Program-made: the position numbers and the translations under genes | Notes under the pieces: model-generated | Databases searched by the model: none | Seen by the model: only the letters and a program-made list of their open reading frames with translations | Told to the model about the DNA's origin: nothing | From: Catajapyx aquilonaris | Taxonomy: Eukaryota | NCBI GenBank assembly: GCA_000934665.2 | Contig: JYFJ02002748.1 | Span: 52,868 to 72,867 of the forward strand | DNA length: 20,000 nt | Reading direction: 5' to 3' | Shown: in pieces, positions 2,381 to 19,676 of the stretch | Layout: every line of letters begins with the position of its first letter | Numbering within the stretch: the stretch's first letter is position 1

Positions 2381-2490
2381 GGCGGCCATTTTGGGACACT
2401 GGGACGCCCATTTTGTTTCGCACAGATATGGAGGCAGCCATTTTGTATGACGTCACCGAGCGGCCATTTTGAATAAAATCGGCCATTTTG
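2381..2490. promoter_or_regulatory. Cluster of five (G/C)CCATTTTG YY1/Pho-like motifs plus one TGACGTCA
   Basis: Copies at 2385, 2407, 2437, 2463 and 2482; CRE-like palindrome at 2448-2455. Function is not shown. Confidence 0.45.
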
Positions 2491-4738
2491 TCACATGCAA
2501 CTTGATAATTCCACATTGTCTTAGCCGGCCTAATAATGCAAAGTGTACTTTAGTAAAACCCTAATGAAAGGCCACTTAGCTTGATAACACATTGCGACTA
2601 TACGTATGCATGCTAATGACTCCGAAGTGCAAATGCACGGCAGATGACATGCAGAAGCGTGATGCATTTACATCAAAATAGCTGGCTCAGTACACGCCTA
2701 CTAACAATATTACATCAAAATATGACATCAAATTATAATCAGGCATTTATGCCTATAATTGCTACGCTCTCGCCCTGTTGTTATTAGTTGCTAATGGTGC
2801 GACTAAAATTGCGCCGTTTGTACATTAATACAGCGCACTTCACACATACACATGCACACAAAAACAACGCATTCCTTAGTTGCGTAAGCCACTTCTTAGC
2901 AGTTACAAAGCTCTCGTTTAGTATCTTCGCACTTGCTCATGCCAGCCAGTGCATTTGTCATCATTTTCATCACTCCTAATACCAATTTGTAAGCAACTGT
3001 ACATTCTGCAGCCCCAGTGACTGCATCAGTGCTGGTGACGACACACCGACTAATTCACCATCATTGCTACAACATTTCAATGTCCATCGGGCAGACGTTC
3101 CTCCACCGGCATATCAACGGTCCTATTAAACATTAGTATTTCTAATCACGTCCGAACTTTCAACCCCCATCTATTAATATCTCCCGACTGAATATTTTTA
3201 CCATTTTTTTTAAACATCACAATCTACAATGTCCGGACATCAGATTCGCCCAAATCGCACAAACACCACGATAAGCACCTCAAAAAACACTTGTTCGGGT
3301 ACTGTCTGTAATCAGTCACTTGGTAGCTATCACCACCATCACTTTTGCAGCTTGCCAGCACCCAACAGAACCGACTTTGCAAATTAACAGGCTGGATAGT
3401 CTCCAATATGGAATTTTCGCGCCTACTAACAAGTCACCGGTGCCGGTCACCGTGACCTCAGCTTGATATTACTAACAACAGGATTATTTGCTCCTAGCAA
3501 CAGGTGCACTTACCGGTCGCGGTTGTAATATCCCAGCGGCCTACACATACGACACATACACACGCACAGGGCAAAGTGGGGAGTACTGAGGGACAGTAAC
3601 GGAATCACGCTAGGTCATTGGCACCTACGTCACGCTGACGTCACCCTGGTTGGAGCCAACCAAAGGTCGCAAGCCTCGAGGAACCACCGAGGTACAAACC
3701 CTTGTTGGGAGATGGTTGGCTGTGCCCAACAAGTGCCTTATTTAGCACACCACACAGTATGTACAAAAAAAAGGGGGGGAAGTGGTAATGGACTCATTCC
3801 TCCAGAGTCCCCTGCTCATTAGACCTTTCTTTTGGTGGCCCGTCACCTGCACGAGCAACGGATCAAAATGTCATTTATCAGAGGCCTCTTAATGAATAAA
3901 AGGGTGGGTGATCGGAGTGGAAAAACTGTTGATTACCCGCAATCTGTGGCGGGCCCCCTTGTGATCGTGGGGCGGAGGCAAATAGACGGTGGAAAAACGG
4001 TGGGGTGGGTCCAGGCTGGCGTGACGACCGTGACATGGTGGGGGGCGGATTGTGGTTAGGTCATGTCTGTATGACTATTGCAACAAAAGTCTGGACAAAC
4101 AAACTGCCGCCTATAACAGGGATTTCCAACCACCCTGTGTCTGAAAAATTGCATGACCTGAACAATGCAACAATGACCGGTTAATTATTCCCCTCATCCT
4201 CAATATTGTTGTCAGGCGCTGACAAGACGTCCATCCAGCCTGGGTTGTAGGGGTCATCCATTGAGGCTCTCAACACTTCCCAGTCAGTGAACCCACGGTA
4301 ATCTCCCAAAATAACCCCTCCCATCAATGTGTCTTCCTGCAAGAAGTCTTGGAGGGGGGGCTGCACTAGAGGGGTTATCGGCTGGCCTATTGATACCCTG
4401 CATAGAGACACTTCTATTCTTAGTCTGTCTCACTCTGATCGGGATCGCCAGACACCAGGCATTGTCACCTATCGGACCCGGTCATCACCTCGAGGGTAGT
4501 GTCGCCTGTCAAAGAGTCAATTTCAGGCGCCTCCAAAGATGGAATCGCGGTCTTAAAATTAGAACTGGGCGGAACTTGGCCACTGGGCGAACTGCAACAA
4601 TACCCCCAACAATGTCATTTACATTGTAGGCCACGGCTCAACCCGCAACGTCTCATATGAATGCAAAATGGGCCACCAGTAATATGCAGTAATGTCAACT
4701 GCTGTTCCTCCAGCTCTATTAGGTACCCTATTGAAAGC

Positions 4739-4819
4739 GCAGATACGGCCTTTTTGCAAAGAGGTGCAGATACGGCTTTTTTGAACATCAGTGAAGATAC
4801 GGCTTTTTTCTAAATCAGT
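4739..4819. repeat. 3 x 27-bp tandem repeat with core AGATACGGCyTTTTT
   Basis: Units start at 4739, 4766 and 4793. The core matches the arm of the hairpin at 14-70. Confidence 0.85.
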
Positions 4820-5638
4820 GCATAACATGCCCGTGATGGCAACAATAGTCCGCCACATTTTACGCCCGTGTGAACAACCCCAGTGTCAACTACACCTCCC
4901 CCCAACGACGACAACGCCCGTGTGAACCCACGCCCGCCTCCCGGTCCAAATCCGATAGAATAAAAAGTGTTTATACTCACCTCAGCCGGCGCAGGTCAGC
5001 AACAAGTGTACCGGAAAAAGGGCCCACACTCACTACGCCCTTTTTCTTCCCTCCCCAATTATTTCCCCTCTCTCTCATGCCGGGCGTATATCCAGCCTAA
5101 AAAGAGGGGAGGTTGGCCCCTTCCACCGACCGCCACTCGCCTGCAAAACCCCATGGGGGAATGAGGGCCTCCGCCACGTGGTCCTCTAAAAAGAGTGCCC
5201 CCACTCCCACACAACCCCGCCTTTTCCTCCCAAACTGTATAAAACACCCCCCAACCATTACAGGGCGGGCTACTAAAAAAGAAAGAAAAAAAAGACCCAG
5301 GGATTGAACCTCCCTCGCTGGGTCGGCCATCTTGGCGTTACAAAATCACGCGTGACACGGGGCCATTTGAGGGCCACAAGTATGGAGATGGGAGGCAAAA
5401 GGCGCGCGTACCTATAAGGGGAGTCGCCGGCCTTATAATTGCATGGTGGAGGAGGCGTACTCTGTATTATTTTTGGGGATGGTGGTGGGGTGGTCTTTTG
5501 GGAGGACCGCTGTTGAGGACGGCGGTGGTATCTGGCGGTTGGTGAGGGAATGAAGGAAAGATTGGGGAGTACTTGTGGCGACACCTAGTGGTCATTAAAA
5601 ACCATTGTATGGTATTGTACACAACCAGTTAATGGAGC

Positions 5639-5644: not shown

Positions 5645-5800
5645 TATATCCAAAAATGAAAAGACAAATTATTTGTTTACTGTACTCGAGTCATCAGATG
5701 ATGATGACAATAATCACCTTAAGGAGTACTCCTCATAGAGGAGCTCCGAATAATCATATATGAAAAATGAAAATCTCCTTCCCATTGCATTGCTTTAAAA

Positions 5801-7033
5801 TTACCACAACAAGGGCGGCAACAAATTGCATGGCGGCTTGGACTTATCACCATCTTCATGGACGAAAACTGTACGGTCGCCAACATTCTTGCTAAAACGA
5901 CTCTTGCTGGTGTCGACAAATATCTCCCATCGCATCCAACCACAAAAATGGATCCTTTTAGAGCACTTGGGAGAGTAAAAATCGCATATTTTTGCGACAG
6001 GCACAAGTTTGCCTGTGCACATGAAATCAAAAAGCGGGGACCAACAACAGTCACAGACCCCAGACACACCAAAGTAAGAAATGTGGTGGGTGAACAAATC
6101 CTTTTCTAGAAGATCTTCCACCACTTTGACAAAACCAGGAACAGACACGGCCTTCACATATTCCAGTTTGGGAGAGGTGAGAAGCATCACAAGATCATGG
6201 ACAGGTAGGGAGAGTTCATCACAATGATTCATTCCGGTCATTATTTTCAACTTAATTAGATGCTCAAATGGTTCATGGATGCTGTTGAATTGCATTTTAT
6301 AAATATTATCCTTCAGAGTCAGCTCCTGCAAATTTGGACATGCTGATCTGACATCAGCCAGGTACACAGAAGGCACCGACACCAGTTTGAGAACTGTCAG
6401 TCCCTTTCCACAATCCCTGGTGATGCCATACCACTCCATCGCCTCCGTATTATCCTCTAAGATACGGTCAATCACTTTAAGCTTTTTCACGTTTCCCAGC
6501 ACTTCTACATCATGACTGCAGCATCCATGATCAGTTAAGTCCTCAGTCAACTTGTGTATGCTAGGATACTGCCTGAGGCATGTATTCAGTACATCACAAC
6601 TTTGGTGTGTTGAGTACATTTCCGTGAGCTTTAGATTCAAATGGCTACCTATTGAGTACAGGACCTGTGCAGTGGCTTCATGCTGAAGGCTCTTGAGTTC
6701 ACGTAAGTTCATGAAAAGAGTGCGGATACCATCCTTTGTGACTTGGGTGTACCTGACATCTACAGCCGTCAGTTTCTTGCAGCATCCAGACTTTGTCTCC
6801 TGTGTTGTGTTTGGGACGCACAGGGACATCACACCATCATCAGTTACATCTTTACATCTTGAAACATCCAACACTGACAGCATGGCAGCATGGGAACCCA
6901 ACTTACATAATACACCATCATTGATGTGACATCCTCTTAGGTAAAGTTCTTCCAGATTCTTCAACAAATGACAGGTTTCTTGAAGAAGTTCACTTAGGTC
7001 ACAGGTGTCAGATAAGTTCAGGATTCGCAGATT
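5801..7033 (-). CDS. LRR terminal exon A (410 aa), paralogue of B and C; no dedicated 5' exons seen
   Basis: The 388-aa ORF is open back to the acceptor tttctgtctctag|AATCTGCGA (phase 0), with a branch-like CCTAAT at 7062-7067. LRR motifs: NLEELYLRGC, LSVLDVSRCKDVTDDGV, CPNLQELTL. The frame is intact. Confidence 0.88.
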   Translation of the reverse strand, partial: NLRILNLSDTCDLSELLQETCHLLKNLEELYLRGCHINDGVLCKLGSHAAMLSVLDVSRCKDVTDDGVMSLCVPNTTQETKSGCCKKLTAVDVRYTQVTKDGIRTLFMNLRELKSLQHEATAQVLYSIGSHLNLKLTEMYSTHQSCDVLNTCLRQYPSIHKLTEDLTDHGCCSHDVEVLGNVKKLKVIDRILEDNTEAMEWYGITRDCGKGLTVLKLVSVPSVYLADVRSACPNLQELTLKDNIYKMQFNSIHEPFEHLIKLKIMTGMNHCDELSLPVHDLVMLLTSPKLEYVKAVSVPGFVKVVEDLLEKDLFTHHISYFGVSGVCDCCWSPLFDFMCTGKLVPVAKICDFYSPKCSKRIHFCGWMRWEIFVDTSKSRFSKNVGDRTVFVHEDGDKSKPPCNLLPPLLW

Positions 7034-7191
7034 CTAGAGACAGAAACAAAAATGTGGGAATATTAGGTCACATCATCCACAGAATATATCCCTTTCAGTG
7101 GCAATGTTTTACAAGTAACAATAGATTCAAGTTGAAACTGGTGCTCTCGGACAACCAGTATTCTGTGTCCTGAGCCATTAATTGCGAGTTT

Positions 7192-7299
7192 GTTTGTTTG
7201 TTTGTTTGTTTGTTTTTGCTTTATTTATCCTTTGTCGGCCTGCAGTACATGCCGCTCAGCCGACCCTCCTCCTCCTTCACATGATGACATTTACATTTA
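7192..7299 (-). mobile_element. Short 5'-truncated non-LTR retro-insertion (LINE/SINE 3' end)
   Basis: 15-bp direct repeat ATTAATTGCGAGTTT at 7177-7191 and 7300-7314. On the minus strand: GTCGGC...GCCGAC stem, then AATAAA (7220-7225), then a (CAAA)n tail. Confidence 0.75.
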
Positions 7300-7998
7300 A
7301 TTAATTGCGAGTTTCAGTGTTGATTTGGTGAAGTCATTGTTGCCACGTGGCTCTGATCAGTAGCCTACTCAAGATTCAATATCCTACTGTGTCACTGGTC
7401 ATTGTTCTAATTAATGGGAAACTTCCTACATGTGAAATCCTTCTCATCTGAGGCAGAGAATGAGGTGAGCCAGGGTGGCAGGCCTGGAACCTATTGTCTA
7501 CATAGCACATACCCACAAGCAACTTTGCGATTCTTAACATTGAGATATAACTCTTTTGCAGTCATGAAACTCTGCTATATTGTAAACCATTTATGCTGCT
7601 GCAGATATTTTCAAAAGCATTCTAGATGCAAGTTAAATGCCATAATGCCCATAAATATTGGCGTCAACATGGTTTTTAAAACTAAGTAATATTTACGCAT
7701 TCATATAGTTCCTGTACTATAAGAGGACTCCAATAGTACACTGTATTACATGTCTGCATAATAAATATTAATTATTGAAGTACAAATTCATTTCAAATTT
7801 TTCACCAACATTTTCAACAAAACTGACATTTACAGTGTGGCACACTAAACTACACTAAACCAGGAGCATCAGAACACTGATATAGTTCACTTTGATAACA
7901 TAAACTCTCATACAAATTTTTGATTTCTAAAGAACATGGGTTACTAAATTTTCAAAATTCAAGAACCTTAGGCCTGTGGAAATTGAAATTATTGAGTA

Positions 7999-9478
7999 GG
8001 GGAGACCAGGACTAGATGGCACACTTTTTACATTTCATTTTGTTCTGAGGTCAGTAAAGACTTATTCACTGCAGTTTTTATACTGATAAATACTTTAGAC
8101 ATTTGAGAATATATGTGATATTTTCGCATGGTTGTATTTTAGATATGCTATCCACTAGAAATTACAGCAAAACTTCCATAAGTCGAACTTCCCTAAGTCG
8201 AAGTTCTCTATAAGTAGAAGAAAATGATGAGCTTGGTTGGTCACAATGTAAAATAATGGGAAATAAACTCCCCTAACTCGAAGTTCTCCATAACTCGAAG
8301 TGCAGGCAGGGCCTTACCATGGGATAGCAATGCATTTTCAGTCTCCCTAAGTAGAAGTTCATGTTGGTGAGTACGGAAAATTTGCTCATTTCCCAGTCGA
8401 AGGGTCGAGAGTAGGCCACGTGTACAGAAAGGCTCAATTTCCTGATTCTCAATTTCTCCGTCTACCAGACGTACCGCACGAAGTGTTTGACTCGATTGTG
8501 GCAATGGAATCCTTGAATCTAAGAGTACACAATGCACATAACTTTTTTTTGCAACAAAACAACGAGGAACATTGTAAAGGTGATAGTGACAGTTATTTTC
8601 CAGTTTTGAAAACCTTTCGTTGCTGGATATAAAGGTAGGCTTCCATATAAAGTTCTGTGCTTTAAAAAATCCAAACTTCTCTAACTCAAATCTTCTATAA
8701 CTCGAAGTCTTTTCCAGTCCCATGGAGATTCGACTTATGGAAGTTTTACTGCTATTTAAAAAGTCTCCCCACATGTGCCATCGTGACCCGTGGCCGCGGC
8801 ATGATGGCACAAGGCATGTTGGCACAGTCATATAAGGCTAAGGAAGGGCTTATGAAATAATATGAAAATCACATACATTATCGATTCATATCAATATAGT
8901 TGCAAGAGAATACAAAGATATTACAAAGATATTTAAAACTTTTTGCCTGCAGGATAACATAGCGTTTCCTCCAGCTAATAAGGAGCAAGTAGATGGCAAT
9001 TGGGGAAGGTGCATGGGCCCGGCCTAATAAGTTACAGGGGAGAGGCACTAGAGCCTGCCATGGTCCGCCAAAGTTGATAGGGACATGTGTCAACATGCCC
9101 CAAGCAAAATGTGCCAACATGCCTCATAGGGATTTTTTTACCTTTCGAGTTCTCCTGCTCTTGAGTGACAAATATATTAAATGGACATATATGCTGTCAT
9201 TTTGTAGGCAGATATTCTGCCTTGCAAACTCATTGTGCTGGGTGATCTAGTTGGAAGAAGAAAAAAACCTACTGAAAATTGGAAATTTACTCAAATGGTC
9301 AAAAACCGACAAAATCGGTACTGCCGCCAGCATCTTTTGCGATTGAATTGAAAATAGGATGTAATGTGGTATGTGGAGCATGTCTAACTGCACCTACCAC
9401 ATAAGCATCAGGTCCGTGAACCTAATGGCGAATGGCCTATTCACAAATTTGACTGTGCCATTGTGCCCCGGTCTCCCC
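7999..9478. mobile_element. Non-autonomous TA-flanked DNA transposon (pogo/Fot1-like by termini)
   Basis: ~25-bp imperfect TIRs (GGGGAGACCAGGACTAGATGGCACA / GGGGAGACCGGGGCACAATGGCACA), TA on both sides, and internal TGGCACA/TGTGCCA repeats. Confidence 0.8.
8165..8751. mobile_element. Tigger/pogo-like MITE nested in the 7999-9478 element
   Basis: 23-bp TIR CAG(C/T)AAAACTTCCATAAGTCGAA and multiple subterminal TAA(C/G)TCGAAG repeats. TA on the left; the right flank is imperfect (CTA). Confidence 0.8.
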
Positions 9479-9482
9479 TATA

Positions 9483-9627
9483 CAAGGGGGTAACAACTTC
9501 GTGGAACAGATGTACAGGGTCCCGCTGGAACCAGCTTGGAACTGGTCTGGAAGCAGGCTGGAACCAGGTGGAATCACCTGGTTCCAGGATCTGGTGTACC
9601 CTTTTTTGGGGAGTTGTTACCCCCTTG
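9483..9627. mobile_element. 145-bp MITE with 8-bp TSD (P-element- or hAT-like)
   Basis: 16-bp perfect TIR CAAGGGGGTAACAACT; TSD CCCCTATA at 9475-9482 and 9628-9635; internal CTGGAACCAG repeats. Confidence 0.85.
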
Positions 9628-10059
9628 CCCCTATATCAATAATCTGGTGCTCAGAGAAGATGCTGGCACTTGAAAGATGATTTTTTTTTTACACATATTT
9701 TACCTTTGAACAATTGTATTTTTTGATTGAAGGGACTATTTCATCACAACTAATTATAATGCAACAATATTTCCACCTCTTGTAAAAAGCAAGAACTAAC
9801 TGATATCTGGGAGAGATTAGTTTATGGGATAAATCCTGCAACAGACGAATCACTAGAATTTTTTCTACTGACTCAAGGAGTCTTGTCCACTGTTAGGCTG
9901 GGTCATATGCACTGTCTGGCATTGCTCACTTTGACAAATGTGTAACCAACTGCATACATCGACATAAAATATTTTGGAGAACCATGCACATTTCTTAGTT
10001 ACGAAACTGGCATCTCAAATCTTTTGTGCTAATCAATCGATTGAACATGGTGAGACAAT

Positions 10060-10065
10060 TTTATT
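10060..10065 (-). promoter_or_regulatory. Putative polyadenylation signal for exon B
   Basis: First AATAAA I found on the minus strand downstream of the stop, ~457 nt away. Confidence 0.4.
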
Positions 10066-10522
10066 GCACACATTACACATTCTTGACAAAAGATATGGAA
10101 ACTTATAAGCATAAAATGGATATGTGCAGGTATCTCAGACCTTTCCACATGTGACAGTGCATTCACCATGCCCAATTACCCTTAAAATAGGTAACATTAA
10201 TTTTTTACAGATTTGAACTACTTGACTCCCAGTCAACTCGTTTATCTTAGAGGTTTATACCAACTTACAAACAACAAACCATCAGACCCTGGTGAGATCT
10301 AAATAGCAAATGGTCATGTTTGTCAAAACATGATTTCTTCAATATCTCACACATCACTGCAACAATTTATCAGTACATTATGCCTCTCTAAAATCAACAT
10401 GTAGCTGAACATTATGTTCATTCCCTGTGCTCATAATTGGAAAAATATTAACCATGACAATGAAGATGACCTTATTCTCCTTACTGTTATTAGTCATGAT
10501 GCACTTCTATCACACAAGTATT

Positions 10523-11740
10523 TCACTTGAAGAAGTTGATGTGTTCGTCATTGGGAAGTGGATTTAGATTGATAACCTCACGATATATATCCCACCCCTG
10601 CTTCTCAATCACAATGGACACTTTATCCTGAGGCCTACGTCTAGGCCTTATTCTACTAGTTACAGTGGCAGGCTTGCCATAAGACATGATATCTGAAAGC
10701 TGCAAACAAATCTCTTTACCATCTCGCAACTCATTTGCCTCAAAGTAACTAATATGGGAGCTGAGCATGTTCTTCTTCAAAAGATCTTTTATAATCACTG
10801 TAAGAATTGAAACACCTTTGACTTTCACATATTCCAGCTTGGGAGAGGTGAGAAGCATGTTTAGGTTATTGCACGTAACTTGACAGGTGCCTTCACTACA
10901 CAGATCTTCAAGTTCAGTTATCTTCAACTTCCTCAAATGCTGAAATGGTTCACTGATTGTGTATGATGAATGTTGTGATGAATGTGTATGATGGAATGAA
11001 CATAAGTAGGAGTTCGAAGTCAATGTCAGCTCCTGCAAATTTGGACATGCCAACCTAAAGTAATTCAAGGGCACTTTATATAGCCCATCAAGTTTGAGAA
11101 CTGTCAATCCCTGCCCACAATCCCCTGCAAATTGAAGCAAATTCATCGTGCAAAAAGCAGATTGTCTGTCACATACAATTTTCAACTCTTTCAAGTTGTC
11201 CAATGCTGCCTTGGTATGACTGCACGACTTATCATGAGCAAAGGCAGTCAAGGTCACCTTGTATATACTAGGGTACCACTCAAGGCACTTATTCAACACA
11301 TCACAACTTTGGTCTAGCAGATACATTTCTGTGGGTTTTATACAGAGACTTCTGCCCATTGAGTGCAACACCTCTGCAGTGGTTTTATGCTGAAGACTCT
11401 GGAGTTTAGACAAGTTCATGAAAAGCGTGCAGATTCCATCCTTTGTAACACCAGTGCGCATGAGATCTATAACTTGCAAGTTCTTGCAGCATCCTGAGTC
11501 CACCTCACTTGCTCTGTGTGGGACACACAATGACTTCACACCATCATCAGTTACATTCGCACATCCTGACACATCCAGGATGGTCAGCAATGGTGTATAA
11601 ACTCCCAACTTTGCTAAAACTTTATCGTTGATTCCACAGCAACTGAGATAAAGTCCTTCAAGGTTCTTCAGAAAGGGAACAGTTTTTAGTAGGACTTGGC
11701 TTAGGTTTCCAGTTTTAGACAAGTTCAGGATTCGCAGATT
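10523..11740 (-). CDS. LRR terminal exon B (405 aa; 510-aa protein when joined to exons 1-2); cysteine-containing, FBXL/AMN1-like LRR solenoid
   Basis: The 399-aa ORF extends to the acceptor ccttttttcttcccccgtag|AATCTGCGA, with a branch-like CTTAAC at 11766-11771. Repeated LxxLxLxxC motifs: NLEGLYLSCC, LTILDVSGCANVTDDGV, NLQVIDL, CPNLQELTL. Confidence 0.9.
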   Translation of the reverse strand, partial: NLRILNLSKTGNLSQVLLKTVPFLKNLEGLYLSCCGINDKVLAKLGVYTPLLTILDVSGCANVTDDGVKSLCVPHRASEVDSGCCKNLQVIDLMRTGVTKDGICTLFMNLSKLQSLQHKTTAEVLHSMGRSLCIKPTEMYLLDQSCDVLNKCLEWYPSIYKVTLTAFAHDKSCSHTKAALDNLKELKIVCDRQSAFCTMNLLQFAGDCGQGLTVLKLDGLYKVPLNYFRLACPNLQELTLTSNSYLCSFHHTHSSQHSSYTISEPFQHLRKLKITELEDLCSEGTCQVTCNNLNMLLTSPKLEYVKVKGVSILTVIIKDLLKKNMLSSHISYFEANELRDGKEICLQLSDIMSYGKPATVTSRIRPRRRPQDKVSIVIEKQGWDIYREVINLNPLPNDEHINFFK

Positions 11741-11847
11741 CTACGGGGGAAGAAAAAAGGTGGCTGTTAAGTCATGTTTCACAGACTACCTTCCTTATAG
11801 TCTGACTGAACACAGTGCTGGATTTACCCCCACCCCGGCCACCTTAA

Positions 11848-12416
11848 AGGTCTGTTCTCAAAGCAGCGGGTTGGAGCAAAGCGTGCGCTTGCAAGCGCCT
11901 TGGAGCGGGTGGTTTGGCCGCTCGAGAATATTCTGGTCTTCACGAAGTAGCTGGTGCGCGTGGCTGGTGCGCGCTAGAGTAAGCGCGTATAGACCATTTT
12001 CGGCGGCGGGCTAATTAAAATATTTTAAATAATTACGTTTGCCTATGAACTTATATGACATAATAGTGACATTTACTACCAAATACACCTGCAATTTTGT
12101 GAACTATTTTCAAGTAAATAAAGACCACGTCACGTGACATATTCCAAAACATTCGAATCGGAGCCCACGTGATTACGTCACGTGACCACGTGACTCCCAC
12201 AGGGCCACCGGATTGGTCCCCATGGAGCGGGTGGTGGGCCAAAGTGGGTAGAAATCAACCCGGAGTAGATCGCGCCCGCTAGCTCCTAGCAGCTGGCAAG
12301 TGTATCTCTACTGATCTCTACCCACTTTCGAATGACGTCAGAGCGGGCAAACCACCCGCTCCAAGGCGCTTGCAAGCGCACGTTTTGCTCCAACCCGCTG
12401 CTTTGAGAACAGACCT
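11848..12416. mobile_element. MITE with ~75-bp near-perfect TIRs (Kolobok- or PIF/Harbinger-like)
   Basis: AGGTCTGTTCTCAAAGCAGCGGGTTGGAGCAAA...GCCGCTC is inverted at both ends. Flanks are TTAA / TTAT. Internal CACGTG/TGACGT cluster. Superfamily is ambiguous. Confidence 0.85.
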
Positions 12417-13207
12417 TTATGCAGTTGAAATCCGCCTCCTACATTCCACTTTGACTCCTTATCCCCTGAGCAAATTAGACTTCACCAGTAAAACTAATTT
12501 TAAAATATCCAACATTCTGATCACATAATGGACACTAGAACAGTGGGTAGCACTTTGAGAACCACTGCTCTACGTTACGGTTCCACTGGAGTTCCTATAG
12601 CGTCCAGCTGCACAAATAAGAGGCTTAACACCTGCCATTTCACTCCATACGTGTGTGGCACCTTTGCTCGCGTACAACACGGGAGAATAATGTGGCACCA
12701 GATATTTTAATTAACCCTTTGACGGCGGGGTTTTGTGGGCGGTTTTTCTTCTTCTTCCCTCAACCAAAATTTGTAGTAGTAGTGATGCTACAGAAAAACA
12801 GTATGCTCCAATATTTATCATTTTAACTCATGGTGGTCCGTTTGAATGTAAAATTCATCTACAGGGTGTTCAAGAAGAAAAAATAAATAAAGTGCAATTA
12901 ACTTTAAATGTAATAATTAAATTAATGGATTTTAAATTTTAAACTAATTATAAAATTGACACTATGGTTACATAATAATACTAAAACACTGTACTTTGAG
13001 AAATTCTTAAGAGTCCAGACACCGCATGTGGACAAAAACTTGCAGGAAGGAGGGGTTATGTTTAGCTTGCTATCACTGATGCAATTTGGTCTATGCTGCG
13101 GTCAAAGTCAGTTTTTGTCAGATTCTTCTCTTTCTACACTCAGCAGAGCAAGATCACTGGGTCTGATTCCTTGACCCATGGAGCCATCACAGTGCCTCTT
13201 GCCCATG

Positions 13208-14348
13208 ACACTATGCATTTGTCCATGGGACTTCATTGCCCTTGTTCCTTAGGTCACCTGTAACTCATATTATGACATTTCACTTTGTCTGACCTTTGTT
13301 TTTGACATAGGGGCATTCAAAAAACCAGAGTCCTGCTGTAGCCTGCCAGGGTTCTGCTATACCATCTCGGATTTTGGTGACAAAAATCACAGCTGTACAC
13401 ACTTATGCCAGCCTATTTCATAATGCTTAATATCTAGTTTCAGCGATATTTTGCAATACAGTGAAGAGGGGAAAAATCGCAAATGTTTGGGAAAGGCCTA
13501 AAATGAGGCGTTTTTGGAGAATTTTTCCGGTTCGTGGAAGTGGTCAAAGTCCAATAATATAAACATCATATATTTATATCAAATGAGAGAGAAAGACGAA
13601 GAGAATGTGCCTAAGGAATTAGTTTTCTTTAACAATGTAAGTAGAATAATGGGCGTGACATTCCATCGGTCACACATCCACGAATTTGGGCCCCCGAAAA
13701 TTAGTGGGCAAATCTGCGAATAATTACTTGCAAGCTATGCATGAACCAGACTTAAAACTGACCACAACTCCTGTCACCGAATATGGCTGCCCTTATGCAA
13801 ACAAATCACTAATTGTTGGTGTCAAAATATTTGGACATGTTTATATTTGAGAAATACTTGAGCAGGTGACCAATGGAATGCCGCACACATTTTTCTGGTT
13901 ACATTTTAGAGGAAAACCAATTCCTCAGGCGCATTTTCCTCCCGTCTTTCTCTTTCATTTGATGTATATGTTGATGGGGTTTTGGCCATTTCCACTCACC
14001 TAAAAAAAAATATCCAAAAAAGGCCTAATTTTCAGCCCCTTCCAAAATTGCTCGATTTCTTTTCTTCCCACGGTATTGCACAATATGGCTGAAACTTGAC
14101 ACTTAGGGTCACGTCATAGGTGTGTACTGCTGTGATTTCTTTTGGGAAAATCAGAGATGATCTAGCAACATCGATTCTGAAAGCCTGGCTATAGTATTTC
14201 AAGGACATTGCTTTTCTGACCATGCCAAGCTAAAAAAAAAAAACACGTTCAGACAATATGAATGGTCATTATGAGTTACGAGTGCCCTAAGAAACATGGA
14301 AATGACATGAATGCCCATGGACAAGAGTTGATATTTGTTACATAGTGT
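13208..14348. mobile_element. Degenerate foldback element with ~420-bp inverted arms
   Basis: Collinear inverted matches, e.g. 13249-13280 vs 14260-14291, 13362-13406 vs 14116-14160, 13433-13520 vs 14011-14098, 13561-13630 vs 13909-13980. Ends are approximate. Confidence 0.75.
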
Positions 14349-14417
14349 AAAGATCATACATCTAAAGAAAATTCCATTTTCACAGTCCAAAGATAGCTCA
14401 TTGACTTTCACAGAAAG

Positions 14418-14698
14418 GGTTGAAGTAGGTCCTACAGGCATGCGAAAGGCGGGAGGGTAGTAGTCGGCGGGAGCAGCGGGCTGTGTCGCAAAGGCACGGA
14501 TAAAGGATAGGCGTGTATCGGCTGAAGATAGGTCTGTATCCGCAAGGAAGGAAGGTTACGCTTGGGTTAGGTTAGGTTGGTACATCATACCCCTTCCAAA
14601 ATCCAAAAAATCAATACTTGCATCCTTGCCTTTGCGACACAGTCAAGCTGCGCCCCGCCGCCCTACTCACCCTGGCGCCAGTAGGGCCTACTCCTTCC
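14418..14698. mobile_element. 281-bp MITE with 8-9-bp TSD (Merlin- or MULE-like)
   Basis: TSD ACAGAAAG at 14410-14417 and 14699-14706; GG...CC termini; inverted arms including AGTAGG-CCTA and CTGTGTCGCAAAGGCA; central GGTTAGGTTAGG. Confidence 0.75.
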
Positions 14699-14706
14699 AC
14701 AGAAAG

Positions 14707-14778
14707 TGCTCAGTGGTGCCCCCTTCAAGTGGCGCCCACGGTACTTGTCATACTTGCCATACCATAGTTACGCCACTG
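14707..14778. mobile_element. Solo hAT-like MITE terminus
   Basis: Ends in TAGTTACGCCACTG, the reverse complement of CAGTGGCGTAACTA. The partner end was not found. Confidence 0.4.
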
Positions 14779-15150
14779 CTATGAGGTGGAAACACTGATT
14801 AGCATACGCCATGGCAGTTGAGCCCCTTTCCACGAGGTAGTAGGGGCAGTTTGAGCCTCAAACTGAGCCATTTCTATCTAAACCTTAGCGCACCCAGTTA
14901 AAAAAACCCGCAGGACAGCCTATGATGCACGTATGCCTCAAAGGGTTAAATCGCCTACGTAGTGCCAGGATGCACTGGGTGGGCAAGAATACCTGTTTTA
15001 AAACATTAAAATGTACAACCTGTACAGAAACCCATCTGGAAAAATTGCCGTTGCTTGCAATTCTGTGAAATGCTTAACCAATAGTAACCATGTCTAGAAG
15101 GAATATACGCGTATTCTATGTGCTTGAAAGTCATAAATTACAGTTTTTAC

Positions 15151-15320
15151 CTGACACCTTTCGGAAGCAAATTCCAGCACGAAGTGTGGGTCCTCAGCAG
15201 CACCTCTTGGCATGTCCACCACAGTGAGACGGGGGATCAGCAGGCCCTGGACATGAGCCCGCTTCATAGGCACCCGCCGAAACTTCAGGCGCTCTATGAT
15301 CTCTTGCACATAGAGCAGTG
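15151..15320 (-). CDS. Coding exon 2 of the LRR gene (P-LLYVQEIIERLKFRRVPMKRAHVQGLLIPRLTVVDMPRGAAEDPHFVLEFASERCQ)
   Basis: Acceptor gttgtttcag| at 15321 and donor CAG|GTAAAA at 15150. The 170 nt are phase 1 in and phase 0 out, which matches exon 1 and the phase-0 LRR exons and gives an LRR-type junction RCQ|NLRILNLS. It is part of ORF 15094..15486. Confidence 0.8.
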
Positions 15321-15450
15321 CTGAAACAACATCACTACTAGAGTCATATGTTCCTGATTCAACCACATGCTTTTGTAACACATTTAGGCACACATTTAAG
15401 GACCACTCCTGGAACGTGCAATCCCCCACGAACCCAGCAGTTATACTTAC

Positions 15451-15595
15451 GAATACCGCGGAATGGGCTCTCCGGAAACACCCCATGTTCTAAGAAGAAG
15501 TCCACCCAGTCGGGACAGAACAGGTTCATGTTATCCACAATGCAAGTCAGGCTCAGGGCCGTCAGGGGCTTGATGCAGGTCGTCTGGGACATCAT
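15451..15595 (-). CDS. Coding exon 1 of an LRR gene (MMSQTTCIKPLTALSLTCIVDNMNLFCPDWVDFFLEHGVFPESPFRGI), carrying a BC-box-like motif
   Basis: ATG at 15595 lies in a perfect Kozak context (GCCACCATG). The exon ends at a strong donor, C|GTAAGT (intron starts 15450), phase 1. It is part of ORF 15359..15901. A possible upstream 5'UTR acceptor (ctgcag|G) is at 15621. Confidence 0.8.
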
Positions 15596-16717
15596 GGTGG
15601 CCTGGACGTCCGCTGGGAGACCTGCAGTACCCTTCTGGTGTCCTTCGGAATTAGTGCTGATCAGGTACGGACCTTTTGCCAGTAGGGGCCAACTGAGCCT
15701 CCCTGCAGCTGCGGCTGTCTCGACCTGCACGTGTTCGTCGCCGGGTAACAATAACAATGGCTGCTCGAACGCGCTGTTGCCATGTGTCACTGTAACCACA
15801 TTTGAACCACACGCACCTTGGGACATTACAGGCACGGAACTGATTCCGGAAAGGCTAATTATTACTGCGCGTCCAATAAACACATACATTTTTATAGACA
15901 CTGCTTGGTACGGAGAAAAACGGAGCGTTCAAAAATCGCTGTGGCATGGTAACAACTGGCAACACCGCAAGTACAAATATTTACTGGCAGGTTGATCGCA
16001 AGTATTGCACAAATTATGAACCTCAATTTAGGGCAATTGCGTTATGCTCGTTATTAAAATCACAGCAGTAAAATTTAACTCCCCTTTGGCCATCTGCCGG
16101 TCACTATCATGATTGCTTTTAAGTGGCGGCACATGCGGTTGCTTCATTTCATTGAAATAATTCACTGAGCAACATTTGCCATAAAGCCAGCCCCTGAATA
16201 AACAACAAAAATTACATGTGCAAGCAACAAATTGGGGCCATTCCGAGCCATTCGAAAGAAACGTGATGGGTAGATTTTCAGTGGCATAAATATACATATC
16301 CAACTGCGAATGTGATGCTCCATTCTACAGTTTCCATAATTTTTATGTTGCATTCTTGAATTTCTATTATACCATTCAATTCCTAGATCCAGAACATCTC
16401 ATGGAGACCAGACGACATGGATGATTCTGCCAAGACTTCCTTGTCATCACCTGGTATCACCACCGACAGACACATGGAAAACACCGCCTACAACCATATG
16501 ATCATGTCACTCATTCCCATCTGCAGTGAAGTGGCAGGGTGCCTTGTACTTTGGGTGCATGATACAAAAAAGCGTTGAACAGAACAAGTACAGTGCAGGA
16601 GTACTGTACTTGTTAAACGCTTTTTTGTATTTGTACAAGATTTGCCCGAGACACTGACAATGCTGATGCAACAGGTGAGACGATTTACTTGCGCTTGGCA
16701 GCAGTTCATAATCACTT

Positions 16718-16844
16718 GGGCCGGTTCCACCAAGACCGGTTTATGATAAAACTCCGGTTCTTTCGGTAAATCCCTATTCCATTTGCAGGGAGTTTCCGAA
16801 AGAACCGGAGTTTTATCATAAACCAGGCTTGGTCAAACCGGCCC
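16718..16844. mobile_element. 127-bp hairpin MITE (PIF/Harbinger-like termini)
   Basis: Almost fully self-complementary: GGGCCGGTT...GGTTTATGATAAAACTCCGGTTCTTTCGG and its inverse. TSD is not clean. Confidence 0.8.
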
Positions 16845-16890: not shown

Positions 16891-17034
16891 ACATCTGCTT
16901 AGGTCCTGACAAATATGATTTCTTCCACCCTCATACTCGCAACAATGAATCTTTTCAATTATAAGAAAAATAAAATTGATTAGGTTCTCCTTACCATTCC
17001 TTCAAAATACAGAAAGCAGCATCACATTGAGAAT

Positions 17035-18243
17035 TCAGGAGTCCTGTATTACTGCATGATAGGTGGTAAGTGACTTAATACCAGCCTTCACAGGGTGTCT
17101 AGTGTCACAATACATTTCCCATCCTTTCTTTTCAATCACACAAGCCATTTTATCAAGAGGGCCAGGGACATAGTGTAATACTTTTGTCACAGACACAGGT
17201 TTCCCACCACACATGACTTCTGAAAGCCTAGAGAAACTATTTAAAAAGTCGCAGGACCCAATCACCCCAAAGTAAGAAATATGACGGCTGAACATGTCCC
17301 TGGCCAGATGATTTGACACCACATGGAAAACAGAAGGAACATTATCCACCTTCAGATATTGCAGTTTGGGAGAGGCCAGAAGCATAGCAAGGTCCTGGTC
17401 AGGTGGGTGGCGGTCAAGTGGGTGGCGGTCACGTGGGGGGCGTGCTGCACATGAAAATCCTGCCAATATTTTCAACTTAATTAGATGCTCAAATGGTTTG
17501 TAGATGCCATTGCATTTACTTTCATAGGTATTCTCCTTCAGAGTCAGCTCCTGCAAATTTGGGCATACTGATCTGATGTCAGTCAGGCACACAGAAGACA
17601 AGGACACCAGTTTGAGAACTGCCAGTCCCTGCCCACAATCCCTGATGATGTAAAACCACTCCATCACTCCAGTACATTTTATCACCTTTAGCTCTTTCAA
17701 GTTTCCCAGTACCTCTGCATCATGACTGCACCACCCATGATCAATGTTGTTCACAGTCAACTTGTGTATGCTAGGATGCTGCCTGAGGCATGCATTCAGT
17801 ACATCACAGTCTTGGTGTGTCAGGTACATTTCCATGGTTTTTAGATTTGAATGGCTACCCATTGAGTACAGGACCTCGGCAGTAGTTTCATGCTGAAGGC
17901 TCTTGAGCTCAGGCAAGTTCATGAAAAAAGTGCGGATACCATCCTTTGTAACTTGGGTGGATCGGACATCGACAGCCATCAGTTTCTTGCAGCATCCAGA
18001 CTTTGTCTGCCCTGCTGCATTTGGGACACACAGGGACATCACACCAACATCAGTTATATGTGGACAGCTTGACAGGTCCAACACTGACAGCATGGCAGCA
18101 TGGGCACCCAACTTATCTAATGCTGCATCGTTGATGTGACATCCTCTTAGGTAAAGTTCTTCCAGATTCTTCAACAAATGACTGTTTTTTTTTAGTACAT
18201 CACTTAGGTTACCGGTGTCAGACAAGTTCAGGATTCGCAGATT
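17035..18243 (-). CDS. LRR terminal exon C (402 aa), closest to exon A; its 5' exons presumably lie beyond position 20000
   Basis: The 396-aa ORF extends to the acceptor tttctgtttctag|AATCTGCGA (phase 0), with a branch-like CCTAAT at 18272-18277. It has the same LRR motifs, and the flanking intron is alignable with that of exon A. Confidence 0.9.
   Translation of the reverse strand, partial: NLRILNLSDTGNLSDVLKKNSHLLKNLEELYLRGCHINDAALDKLGAHAAMLSVLDLSSCPHITDVGVMSLCVPNAAGQTKSGCCKKLMAVDVRSTQVTKDGIRTFFMNLPELKSLQHETTAEVLYSMGSHSNLKTMEMYLTHQDCDVLNACLRQHPSIHKLTVNNIDHGWCSHDAEVLGNLKELKVIKCTGVMEWFYIIRDCGQGLAVLKLVSLSSVCLTDIRSVCPNLQELTLKENTYESKCNGIYKPFEHLIKLKILAGFSCAARPPRDRHPLDRHPPDQDLAMLLASPKLQYLKVDNVPSVFHVVSNHLARDMFSRHISYFGVIGSCDFLNSFSRLSEVMCGGKPVSVTKVLHYVPGPLDKMACVIEKKGWEMYCDTRHPVKAGIKSLTTYHAVIQDS
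17397..17441. repeat. In-frame 3 x 15-bp coding minisatellite in exon C
   Basis: ggtcaggtgggtggc / ggtcaagtgggtggc / ggtcacgtggggggc, encoding PPRDRHPLDRHPPD. Confidence 0.9.
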
Positions 18244-18296
18244 CTAGAAACAGAAACAAAGATGTGGGACTATTAGGTGTTACCATCCACTAAATA

Positions 18297-18849
18297 CAGG
18301 GTGAGCCAACTTTATGGCACCAGTAGTTATTGGAAAAATCAACAAGCTGCTTGTTTATAAGCAGGTCGTTGCTAAGAGATCAATAAGAGTTACTTTCTGG
18401 AGAATCGGGAATAGCACCTGCTGATATTAGGTCCAATGCCCATGTAACAATTAATCTACAAGAACTGTTTATTTGCTGGTAACTAAACAACGCTGCCAGT
18501 TTGACCTGTCTCAGTTGCGCCAACTGCGGCCAACAATGAACAGACCAGAAGGCCTATTTATTGACACACCCGGGTCTGTCCAGTTCCGACGGATTAGGCC
18601 TGTGGTTTGGCAGCTAGTGACCTCATGTGAAACCCTCCAGCGAACACCAGAACAGGCCTGTTTCCCACGGATGACCCTTTTTCCCTCATTAATTTTGTTA
18701 CATGGGCATTAGACCTAATATCAGCAGGTGCTATTCCCGATTCTCCAGAAAGGAACTCTTATTGATCTCTTAGCAACGACCTGCTTATAAACAAGCAGCT
18801 TGCGCGATTTTTCCAATAACTACTGGTGCCATAAAGTTGGATCACCCTG
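18297..18849. mobile_element. Tc1/mariner-like MITE with ~160-bp TIRs
   Basis: TA|CAGGGTG...CACCCTG|TA with near-perfect arms. The paralogous intron of exon A (7076-7100) shows the empty site. Confidence 0.92.
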
Positions 18850-18890
18850 TATACCCTTTTCAGTGACATATTTTTCCAAGTAATATATTA

Positions 18891-19676
18891 CAGTGAAACT
18901 GCCCATTACGGACCCTGGGCATAGCGGAAACCTATCCATTGCGGATTTTTTTCCGGGAACAGGTATATGCATAGGGCATGGAACGTATTTTTTGAGGGAT
19001 ATTACGGGACCTCCCCAACCAGGAAACGGAAGGATTTTTGTCTCCCTTCAAAGAAAATCCCTGTTCATAACTGAAATCAAATGGTGCACATTATCTCACA
19101 AAAATAGAAACTACACTTGTGTTCACTCCTCCCAGGCCCTCCCAGGAGGCCTCTGAGTAAGCCTTTTTGGAAGTCTTTCACCATACTGTGTCTCCTAATT
19201 GCTGGAATTGCCAGTGGCCTTGAAGATAGGGGACTATTTTTGGTTGTAAAACTGACATAAGGCCTGTTGGGGGGGGGGGGGGNGGGAAAGAAGATTGTGA
19301 GTTTGTGACTCTCTGGGAAGAGGAAGGGGTTGACAAAGACTCAAAGTATTGCTCCTGTGTGGACAGATGGTCCAAATGAGCATGCAAACTTAATAGCGCA
19401 AAAACTTGGTGTGGCAAAACTTAGTGTTTCAAATGGATGGCTGGAAAGTTTCCGCAACAGGCACAGAACTTCGCAGAAAAAAGTGTGTGGTGTGTGTGTG
19501 GTGGACTGATTTTTCACCATATTGAAGGGAAGGTGGTTATTTTTTCTCTGCCCATTTACCTCTTTCTCACCGGCAAAAAAACTTAATAACGTCCTTAATC
19601 TGAATGTAGCGGAAACCTGTCCATTACGGAATATTTTTAGGGTCCCGTGCAATTCCATAATACGCAGGTTTCACTG
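18891..19676 (+). mobile_element. Tigger/pogo-like internally deleted transposon
   Basis: TA|CAGTGAAAC...GTTTCACTG|TA; subterminal AGCGGAAACCT-TCCATT-CGGA repeats; transposase remnant inside. Confidence 0.85.
19378..19491 (+). pseudogene. Remnant of a CENP-B/Tc5-type HTH of a pogo/Tigger transposase
   Basis: My translation EHANLIAQKLGVAKLSVSNGWLESFRNRHRTSQKKVCG fits the family motif F-x-A-S-x-G-W-L-x-x-F-K-x-R-H. Confidence 0.8.

What the first reader, a model, noticed from the sequence alone, without database searches (positions are those of the whole stretch)
5801..15595. One constant 5' module, two interchangeable LRR terminal exons: candidate alternative-last-exon receptor repertoire
Seen: exons 1-2 end in a phase-0 donor at 15150. 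Downstream lie two intact ~1.2-kb LRR exons (B, then A), each with a branch-like site, a pyrimidine tract, an identical phase-0 entry (NLRILNLS), a stop and an AATAAA. Between A and B (7034-10522) I found no copy of exons 1-2; much of it is transposon. Inference: A is reached by skipping B (intron 7034-15150), giving 510-aa and 515-aa isoforms with the same 105-aa head and substantially different LRR bodies. This constant-plus-variable-cassette logic parallels UGT1A and clustered protocadherins, but with the variable exon at the 3' end.
Basis: partly seen in the sequence, partly recalled or inferred. Interest (0 to 1): 0.8.

Follow-up and report, generated by a model that had tools for sequence, protein, structure and literature searches.

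The report
One head, several LRR end exons
A tandem cluster of F-box-like leucine-rich-repeat genes holds three intact, transcribed 1.2-kb end exons but only one start module, so two end exons may share that module by alternative splicing, a known kind of arrangement that is not yet shown here.

Summary
On the minus strand a two-exon head (15595-15451, 15320-15151; 105 aa) ends in a phase-0 donor. Two intact LRR terminal exons follow, B (11740-10523) and A (7033-5801). Each has a pyrimidine-rich acceptor, the entry NLRILNLS, a stop and one AATAAA. Neither tblastn nor a family head profile finds a second head anywhere in the window.

The locus is therefore a tandem array.

Distant ~500-aa homologues have the same build: head at 1-105 and LRR body from about 106. 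Their fold resembles F-box/LRR ubiquitin-ligase substrate receptors (FBXL2, Z 23.3).

Contigs of one public run behave like RNA. They confirm the intron-1 splice and cover A, B and C exactly. Exon A is not decaying: dN/dS is 0.49-0.69, it changes as fast as C, and neutral drift would have closed it.

No contig joins 15151 to either 11740 or 7033, so alternative last-exon use is likely (about 0.5) but unproven.

Constant 5' exons with variable 3' terminal exons are already known in Drosophila (pipe, PGRP-LC, lola, mod(mdg4)).

The parts
15451..15595 (-). Head exon 1. ATG at 15595, 145 nt, phase-1 donor gtaagt at 15450.
   Evidence: Sequence. The family head profile matches it at E 1.9e-11. The joint 15451|15320 appears in one contig of run X1.
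15321..15450 (-). Intron 1, 130 nt, GT..AG.
   Evidence: table 5: skips 130, ends CT..AC on the plus strand, one contig, 58 letters on the shorter side.
15151..15320 (-). Head exon 2, 170 nt. It ends ...TGTCAG with a phase-0 donor gtaaaa at 15150.
   Evidence: The head profile matches it at E 5.6e-15.
11741..15150 (-). Intron from the head to exon B, 3410 nt. It holds an element with terminal inverted repeats at 11845-12419.
   Evidence: The splice itself is inferred; no joint was listed.
10523..11740 (-). LRR terminal exon B, 405 codons plus stop. AATAAA at 10065-10060.
   Evidence: Family profile 154.7 bits from position 106. Exact contigs at 10662-11060 and 11092-11578.
7034..10522 (-). Interval between B and A: the 3' UTR of B, repeats, and no head copy. 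One exact 207-nt contig lies at 9647-9853, beyond B's AATAAA. An element with terminal inverted repeats lies at 8159-8757. A (CAAA)n run lies at 7181-7229.
5801..7033 (-). LRR terminal exon A, 410 codons plus stop. AATAAA at 5644-5639.
   Evidence: Family profile 128.8 bits from position 106. Exact contigs at 5685-6271 and 6244-6564. dN/dS 0.49-0.69.
17035..18243 (-). LRR terminal exon C of the neighbouring upstream gene, 402 codons plus stop. AATAAA at 16890-16885. Its head is not in the window.
   Evidence: Exact contigs cover 16895-18245. One of them runs 10 further letters that do not fit the genome, so the exon is spliced at its acceptor. It is 78.6% identical in nucleotides to A.
18294..18852 (.). 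Element with terminal inverted repeats inserted about 50 nt upstream of the acceptor of C. It interrupts the intron homology between A and C.
   Evidence: I1 and I4, 98% complementary arms; 7034-7086 ~ 18244-18296; 7085-7140 ~ 18850-18901.

Best explanation
The window holds part of a tandem array of a fast-evolving F-box/LRR-like gene family, all on the minus strand. A canonical member is about 500 aa. Its 105-aa head consists of three helices, collinear with an F-box, followed by the first LRR. This head is presumably the part that docks onto a cullin-ligase adaptor. The remaining ~400 aa form an LRR solenoid encoded by one terminal exon, presumably the part that binds the substrate.

The gene that starts at 15595 has one head and two complete terminal exons downstream, B and A. 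Most likely the phase-0 donor at 15151 joins either to B (proximal; the transcript then ends at B's poly(A) site) or, by skipping B, to A (an 8117-nt intron). This would give 510-aa and 515-aa proteins with the same head and LRR bodies about 49% identical. Exon C belongs to the next gene upstream.

Shown: the anatomy, the intron-1 splice, transcription of A, B and C, the family build, and the lack of a second head.

Inferred: both head-to-LRR splices, and the ligase-adaptor function.
For: Only one head is present in 20 kb, by tblastn and by the head profile (2 of 1022 six-frame pieces match, and both are the known exons).

The family build is fixed. Of the 150 listed library proteins, 7 match the LRR-exon profile from its positions 1-3 starting at their residues 106-109. 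The profile of 11 homologues places the window's head at positions 1-105 (E 1.5e-12) and A, B and C from position 106. In the model of homologue P0001 (pLDDT 88.3), position 105/106 falls between the first and second LRR. An LRR exon alone therefore lacks the helices and the first repeat.

Exon A is under constraint. dN/dS is 0.69 against C and 0.49 against B. Unique amino-acid changes number 27 in A and 29 in C. In a neutral simulation only 0.25% of copies stay open at 0.19 substitutions per site, which is half of dS(A-C) = 0.37.

The acceptor of A is kept. About 107 nt of its intron is still alignable with that of C.

Exon A is expressed and ends like an mRNA. Exact contigs cover 5685-6564, and depth is 0 in bins 1287-5144.

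An exact contig at 9647-9853 lies 212-418 nt beyond B's only AATAAA, so some transcription runs past B.

The donor and both acceptors are phase 0.
Against: No contig joins 15151 to 7033. The expected B joint was not listed either, so contigs could not have shown such a joint, and most pieces and loose ends were not displayed.

Exon C also has no head within the 1757 nt available upstream of it. Heads can therefore lie far from their exon, and the array contains whole-gene duplicates.

At least one other head-like transcript, with mismatches to this head, is expressed from elsewhere (tables 3-5).

The interval between B and A is repeat-rich and could hide a promoter or an unrelated first exon.

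A recent loss of A's own head cannot be excluded: at 0.02 substitutions per site, 48% of simulated copies are still open.

The assembly could not be checked, because no genome is held.
Confidence: 0.5

Rival explanations
1. Exon A has its own promoter and an unrecognised, non-homologous first exon inside 7034-10522, possibly repeat-derived, or it is translated without a head from an internal Met. A is then a separate gene, not an isoform.
For: The 3489-nt interval is repeat-rich and partly transcribed: an exact contig at 9647-9853 and low depth in bins 7074-7716. The first in-frame Met of A is at residue 51.
Against: There is no head-like coding piece in the interval. The contig at 9647-9853 has no GT donor at its 3' end. 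Every full-length homologue examined has the head (9 of 9 aligned). Without it the protein loses the F-box-like helices and the first LRR.
Confidence: 0.17
2. Exon A is a recently orphaned duplicate. Its head was deleted or overwritten by repeats. It is still transcribed by read-through from B but makes no protein.
For: There is no head, the interval is repeat-laden, and there is transcription beyond B's AATAAA. A short neutral period cannot be excluded: 48% of simulated copies are still open at 0.02 substitutions per site.
Against: The ORF, the acceptor and the poly(A) signal are all intact. A shows no excess of changes over C (27 against 29). Its contigs stop near its own poly(A) signal, with zero depth beyond.
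Confidence: 0.15
3. Exon A is served by a different head: cis-splicing from a head further upstream (for example that of exon C, beyond 20000), trans-splicing, or a head lost from the sequence through an assembly gap or collapse.
For: A second head-like transcript is expressed. It differs from this head at 5 listed places in exon 2 and at 8 listed places plus two small deletions in exon 1 and the 5' UTR. The head of C is outside the window. A single N stands at 19283.
Against: The nearest phase-compatible donor is 15151. No evidence of misassembly was seen, and the contigs match A, B and C without any difference.
Confidence: 0.15

Closest known systems
Drosophila pipe (pip) and PGRP-LC: mutually exclusive, tandemly duplicated 3' terminal exons or 3' variable regions
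   Same: Common 5' exons are followed by a row of homologous terminal exons that arose by tandem duplication. One is chosen per mRNA. Each encodes the specificity-giving domain. (PMC9013439, passages seen. That the variable parts encode whole domains is recalled, not read.)
   Different: Only two candidate terminal exons follow this head. No junction evidence exists. The domain is an F-box/LRR-like solenoid. The locus also contains whole-gene duplicates (exon C).
Drosophila mod(mdg4) and lola
   Same: Constant 5' exons that encode an interaction module are joined to one of many alternative 3' exons. (Abstracts of PMC13490949, PMC6237743 and bioRxiv 10.1101/132027, listed.)
   Different: mod(mdg4) uses trans-splicing of 3' exons transcribed from their own promoters. 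It has 20-30 or more variants with BTB plus zinc-finger/FLYWCH modules (the module names are recalled). Here there would be two variants, and cis-splicing is assumed.
F-box/LRR (FBXL) substrate receptors of SCF ligases, and yeast Rad7
   Same: The LRRs are of the cysteine-containing LRR_6 type. The family profile hits FBXL2 at 2.7e-39 and FBXL17 at 2.4e-24, and hits RAD7 collinearly from the N terminus. The model of homologue P0001 aligns to FBXL2 with Z 23.3, rmsd 4.3 over 362 residues, model 23-480 against chain 9-400.
   Different: No Pfam F-box model matches any of the 11 homologues at E <= 0.01, nor the window's two head exons at E <= 1. The head-only profile reaches only RAD7, at E 0.039. 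Binding to SKP1 or Elongin C is untested.
UGT1A and clustered protocadherins
   Same: The logic of a constant part plus a variable cassette, with variable exons that arose by tandem duplication (recalled).
   Different: In those loci the variable exons are 5' first exons, each with its own promoter, and the constant exons are 3' (recalled). Here the polarity is reversed, so the choice would be made by splicing and polyadenylation, not by promoter choice.

Membership tests
Alternative-last-exon gene with tandemly duplicated terminal exons (pipe / PGRP-LC type) | One set of common 5' exons upstream of two or more homologous terminal exons on the same strand | tested here: met
   One head and two LRR exons lie downstream of it. 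No other head was found in the window.
Alternative-last-exon gene with tandemly duplicated terminal exons (pipe / PGRP-LC type) | Each terminal exon has its own acceptor, stop codon and poly(A) signal, in a phase compatible with the common donor | tested here: met
   phase 0 throughout, with AATAAA at 10065 and 5644.
Alternative-last-exon gene with tandemly duplicated terminal exons (pipe / PGRP-LC type) | mRNAs that join the common donor to each terminal exon | tested here: inconclusive
   One search lists no joint 15151->11740 or 15151->7033. Only contigs of one run were available, and 122 pieces and 42 loose ends were not shown.
Alternative-last-exon gene with tandemly duplicated terminal exons (pipe / PGRP-LC type) | Both terminal exons are expressed | tested here: met
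   Exact contigs lie on A (5685-6564) and on B (10662-11060, 11092-11578) in run X1. That run also carries the spliced intron-1 joint.
F-box/LRR (FBXL) proteins | Cysteine-containing LRR solenoid | tested here: met
   LRR_6 hits on A (8.7e-09) and C (6e-09) pass Pfam's cutoff of 23.4 bits; B's hit (1.3e-04, 22.2 bits) falls just below it. FBXL2 and FBXL17 are the top sequence and fold matches of the family.
F-box/LRR (FBXL) proteins | An N-terminal F-box recognisable by sequence | tested here: not met
   No Pfam F-box family matches any of the 11 homologues at E <= 0.01, nor the two head exons at E <= 1.
F-box/LRR (FBXL) proteins | A three-helix F-box fold ahead of the LRRs that binds SKP1 | tested here: inconclusive
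   The model has helices at 10-32, 51-63 and 69-75 before the first LRR. The aligned range to FBXL2 starts at model residue 23 and chain residue 9, but only the ends of ranges are given. Binding was not tested.
Rad7-type SOCS/BC-box LRR proteins | An N-terminal BC-box-like motif followed by LRRs, collinear with Rad7 | tested here: inconclusive
   The head-only profile hits only RAD7 (5zb2_A residues 3-108), at E 0.039. The whole-family profile is collinear with it, 5-181 against 3-178. The BC-box consensus is recalled.
UGT1A / clustered protocadherin type | Variable first exons, each with its own promoter, spliced to constant 3' exons | tested here: not met
   Here the constant part is 5' and the variable exons are terminal.

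The most novel reading that the evidence does not exclude
A ubiquitin-ligase substrate receptor whose whole ~400-aa LRR recognition body is swapped by choosing between tandemly duplicated terminal exons, behind one adaptor-docking head. This may be one unit of a larger array in which few heads serve many fast-evolving LRR bodies. It would be a splicing-generated repertoire of degradation specificities.
Probability: 0.4. Interest if true: 0.55.

Novelty: new member of a known kind. Interest (0 to 1): 0.4.

Why it matters
If the head really serves both exons, one promoter and one adaptor-docking module would yield two ligase receptors with LRR bodies only about 49% identical. Specificity would then be set by the choice of splice and poly(A) site rather than by separate genes.

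This would add an E3-receptor example to the short list of loci with a constant 5' part and variable 3' terminal exons. It would also show how an exon-only duplication can stay alive.

If the head does not serve both, the locus is an ordinary tandem array with one headless copy, and annotation pipelines should not fuse the exons.

Tried and rejected
- No genome is held for this window. Heads and LRR exons could not be counted outside the 20 kb.
- The search for homologous proteins found nothing in any of its 3 searches: exon B at near lengths; head exon 2 against longer proteins; exon A residues 1-150 against shorter proteins. No stored protein fragment spans a head-LRR junction.
- The look-up of sequencing runs listed one run of unrecorded kind and no holder on record as RNA.
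- Read laying gave only contigs. It showed no joint from 15151 to any LRR exon. The letters of the 10-nt overhang on exon C were not shown, so C's partner exon is unknown. Contig depths were not used to rank exons, as the tool advises.
- The search of earlier findings returned nothing in 3 look-ups.
- Pfam on 26 other ORFs of the window gave no hit above a curated cut-off. Rfam at gathering thresholds gave 0 matches.
- The sigma-70 promoter and terminator scan of 7034-10522 does not apply to a eukaryote and matched the shuffled controls (11 promoter-like sites found, 10.7 expected). I ignored it.
- The ORF at 19341-19670 that starts NLRI has no further LRR likeness and no acceptor in the right place. 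I treat it as chance.
- The weak inverted repeats I6 (7306-7340 with 11527-11561, 77%) and I7 were considered as RNA pairing that might guide exon choice. At that quality I did not pursue them.
- One literature search combining F-box or LRR with alternative last exons returned only plant gene-family surveys.
Full report
**Anatomy**

All relevant features lie on the minus strand.

- Stop-to-stop ORFs show three long LRR reading frames, not two:
  - A, 7033-5801, 410 codons.
  - B, 11740-10523, 405 codons.
  - C, 18243-17035, 402 codons.
- Each follows a pyrimidine tract and AG, and each begins with the same 20 nt encoding NLRILNL.
- Downstream of each stop, in the stretch searched, there is exactly one AATAAA-type hexamer: 157 nt (A), 458 nt (B) and 145 nt (C) after the stop.
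- The head lies between C and B:
  - ATG at 15595.
  - Exon 1 is 15595-15451, donor gtaagt.
  - Exon 2 is 15320-15151, ending CAG|gtaaaa in phase 0.
  - Together they give 315 nt, 105 aa.
Exon C was overlooked.

**Is there another head?**

- tblastn of the head against the window finds only itself; the next best hit is E 0.67, inside exon B.
- I built a profile from the window's head (plus the first 8 LRR-exon residues) and the first 125 residues of nine distant homologues.
- I ran it over all 1022 six-frame pieces of 12 aa or more:
  - Only the two known exons match (5.6e-15, 1.9e-11).
  - The next best pieces are on the plus strand (E 0.07, 0.089).
  - The best minus-strand piece inside 7034-10522 scores E 2.7.
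- So neither A (3489 nt upstream to B) nor C (1757 nt upstream to the window's end, including a 559-nt inserted element and one N) has its own head here.

**What the gene family is**

- Pfam sees only LRR models, LRR_6 best.
- A word-indexed search found nothing.
- A full HMMER scan with the profile of A, B and C found 1468 proteins at E <= 0.001, the best at 1.4e-29.
- Among the 150 listed, 7 proteins of 498-537 aa match the profile from its first three positions, starting at their own residues 106-109.
- Two named relatives are arthropod proteins labelled F-box/LRR-like.
- A profile of 11 such proteins places the window's head on positions 1-105 (E 1.5e-12). It places A, B and C from position 106, with 128.8, 154.7 and 133.7 bits.
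- The exon 2/3 boundary therefore coincides with a fixed point of an old, conserved architecture.
- Against solved structures, that profile hits FBXL2 (2.7e-39), FBXL17, KDM2A/B, TIR1 and SKP2. It also hits yeast RAD7, collinearly from the N terminus.
- The head-only profile reaches only RAD7, weakly (E 0.039).
- A confident model of homologue P0001 (pLDDT 88.3, pTM 0.83) has three helices (10-32, 51-63, 69-75) and then a first LRR (strand 82-84, helix 93-102) before position 106.
- That model's best fold match is FBXL2: Z 23.3, rmsd 4.3, 362 residues, model 23-480 on chain 9-400.
- No Pfam F-box model matches.
- I read the family as F-box/LRR-like ligase substrate receptors, with the head as the adaptor-docking part. 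That function is inferred.

**Is exon A alive?**

- A and C are sisters: 78.6% nucleotide identity over 5986-7086 against 17178-18296. B is about 70% identical to both.
- Nei-Gojobori estimates:

| Pair | dN/dS | dS |
|---|---|---|
| A-C | 0.69 | 0.37 |
| A-B | 0.49 | 0.92 |
| B-C | 0.51 | 0.84 |

- With B as outgroup, A has 27 unique amino-acid changes and C has 29.
- In a neutral simulation of exon A, only 0.25% of copies keep the frame open at 0.19 substitutions per site. At 0.02 substitutions per site, 48% do.
- About 107 nt of intron upstream of A still aligns with that of C, once the inserted element in C is skipped.
- A has therefore been kept as a coding, spliced exon for most of its history. 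A very recent loss of its head is not excluded.

**RNA**

- One public run holds 21% of the sampled words. Its contigs behave like RNA:
  - One contig carries the intron-1 joint 15451|15320 with GT..AG ends.
  - Depth is 0 in bins 1287-5144 and 16076-16718.
- Exact contigs cover these stretches:
  - A and its 3' UTR (5685-6271, 6244-6564).
  - B (10662-11060, 11092-11578).
  - C (16895-18245).
- The last C contig carries 10 more letters that do not fit the genome, so C is spliced at its predicted acceptor.
- An exact contig at 9647-9853 lies beyond B's only AATAAA and has no donor at its end. It is either read-through past B or a long 3' UTR.
- Contigs with mismatches on the head reveal at least one further head-like transcript from elsewhere. 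They show 5 listed differences in exon 2, 8 listed differences plus two small deletions in exon 1 and the 5' UTR, and a variant 11-nt stretch at the same exon-exon joint.
- No joint from 15151 to any LRR exon was listed, not even for B. Short contigs break at words shared between paralogues, and most pieces and loose ends were not displayed. The key junction remains untested.

**Reading**

- The family needs a head. A is intact, constrained, expressed and has a preserved acceptor. The only upstream phase-compatible donor in the window is 15151.
- The simplest model is that this donor uses B or, by skipping B, A. I put this at about 0.5.
- Rivals:
  - An unrecognised first exon or promoter in the repeat-rich interval (0.17).
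  - A recently orphaned copy carried by read-through (0.15).
  - Another head: upstream cis-splicing, trans-splicing or an assembly fault (0.15).

**Comparison and novelty**

- Constant 5' exons with tandemly duplicated, mutually exclusive terminal exons are described for Drosophila pip, and 3' variable regions for PGRP-LC (PMC9013439, passages).
- Common exons joined to alternative 3' exons are described for mod(mdg4) (abstracts in the listing). lola is described there as encoding up to twenty isoforms. That lola's isoforms share 5' exons is recalled, not read.
- If confirmed, this would be a new member of a known kind. What would be new is that the swapped cassette is the entire recognition body of a ligase receptor.
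- My three completed literature searches found no such case for F-box/LRR genes. They were not exhaustive.

Noticed in passing
window 17035-18243 (-): A third intact LRR terminal exon, C, lies upstream of the head. It is 78.6% identical in nucleotides to A and is transcribed. It is spliced at its acceptor to an exon that is not in the window.
   Followed up: yes
window 18294-18852; 11845-12419; 8159-8757; 16718-16844: Four inverted-repeat features. Three are elements with terminal inverted repeats, with arms 98%, 97% and 85% complementary. One of these sits 50 nt upstream of the acceptor of C, one in the head-to-B intron and one between B and A. The fourth, at 16718-16844, is a 127-nt near-palindrome (arms 90% complementary) just downstream of C's 3' end. 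The 8159-8757 region has very deep, mismatched contigs, so it belongs to an abundant, expressed repeat family.
   Followed up: partly
window 15151-15668 (-): Contigs about 90-95% alike to the head show a paralogous head transcript. It has the same exon 1/exon 2 joint position, a variant 11-nt stretch, a 3-nt deletion in exon 1 and a change in the first ATG. Over 15512-15637 only this variant was listed, with no exact contig.
   Followed up: partly
window 9647-9853 (-): An exact 207-nt transcribed patch lies 212-418 nt beyond B's only AATAAA. It has no splice donor at its end, and a repeat begins right after it.
   Followed up: partly
window 7014-7033, 11721-11740, 18224-18243 (-): The first 20 nt of exons A, B and C are identical, although dS between them is 0.37-0.92. 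This may reflect a constraint on splicing at the nucleotide level, or local gene conversion.
   Followed up: no
window 19283: A single N sits in the region upstream of exon C. It may mark an assembly gap.
   Followed up: no
window 7181-7229: A (CAAA)n microsatellite lies about 150 nt upstream of the acceptor of A, just beyond the end of the A-C intron homology.
   Followed up: no
window 8241-8837 (-): A 198-codon open frame with no Pfam match lies inside the deep-coverage repeat. One contig skips 8165-8819, with 28 other letters in between, so other copies lack this piece.
   Followed up: partly
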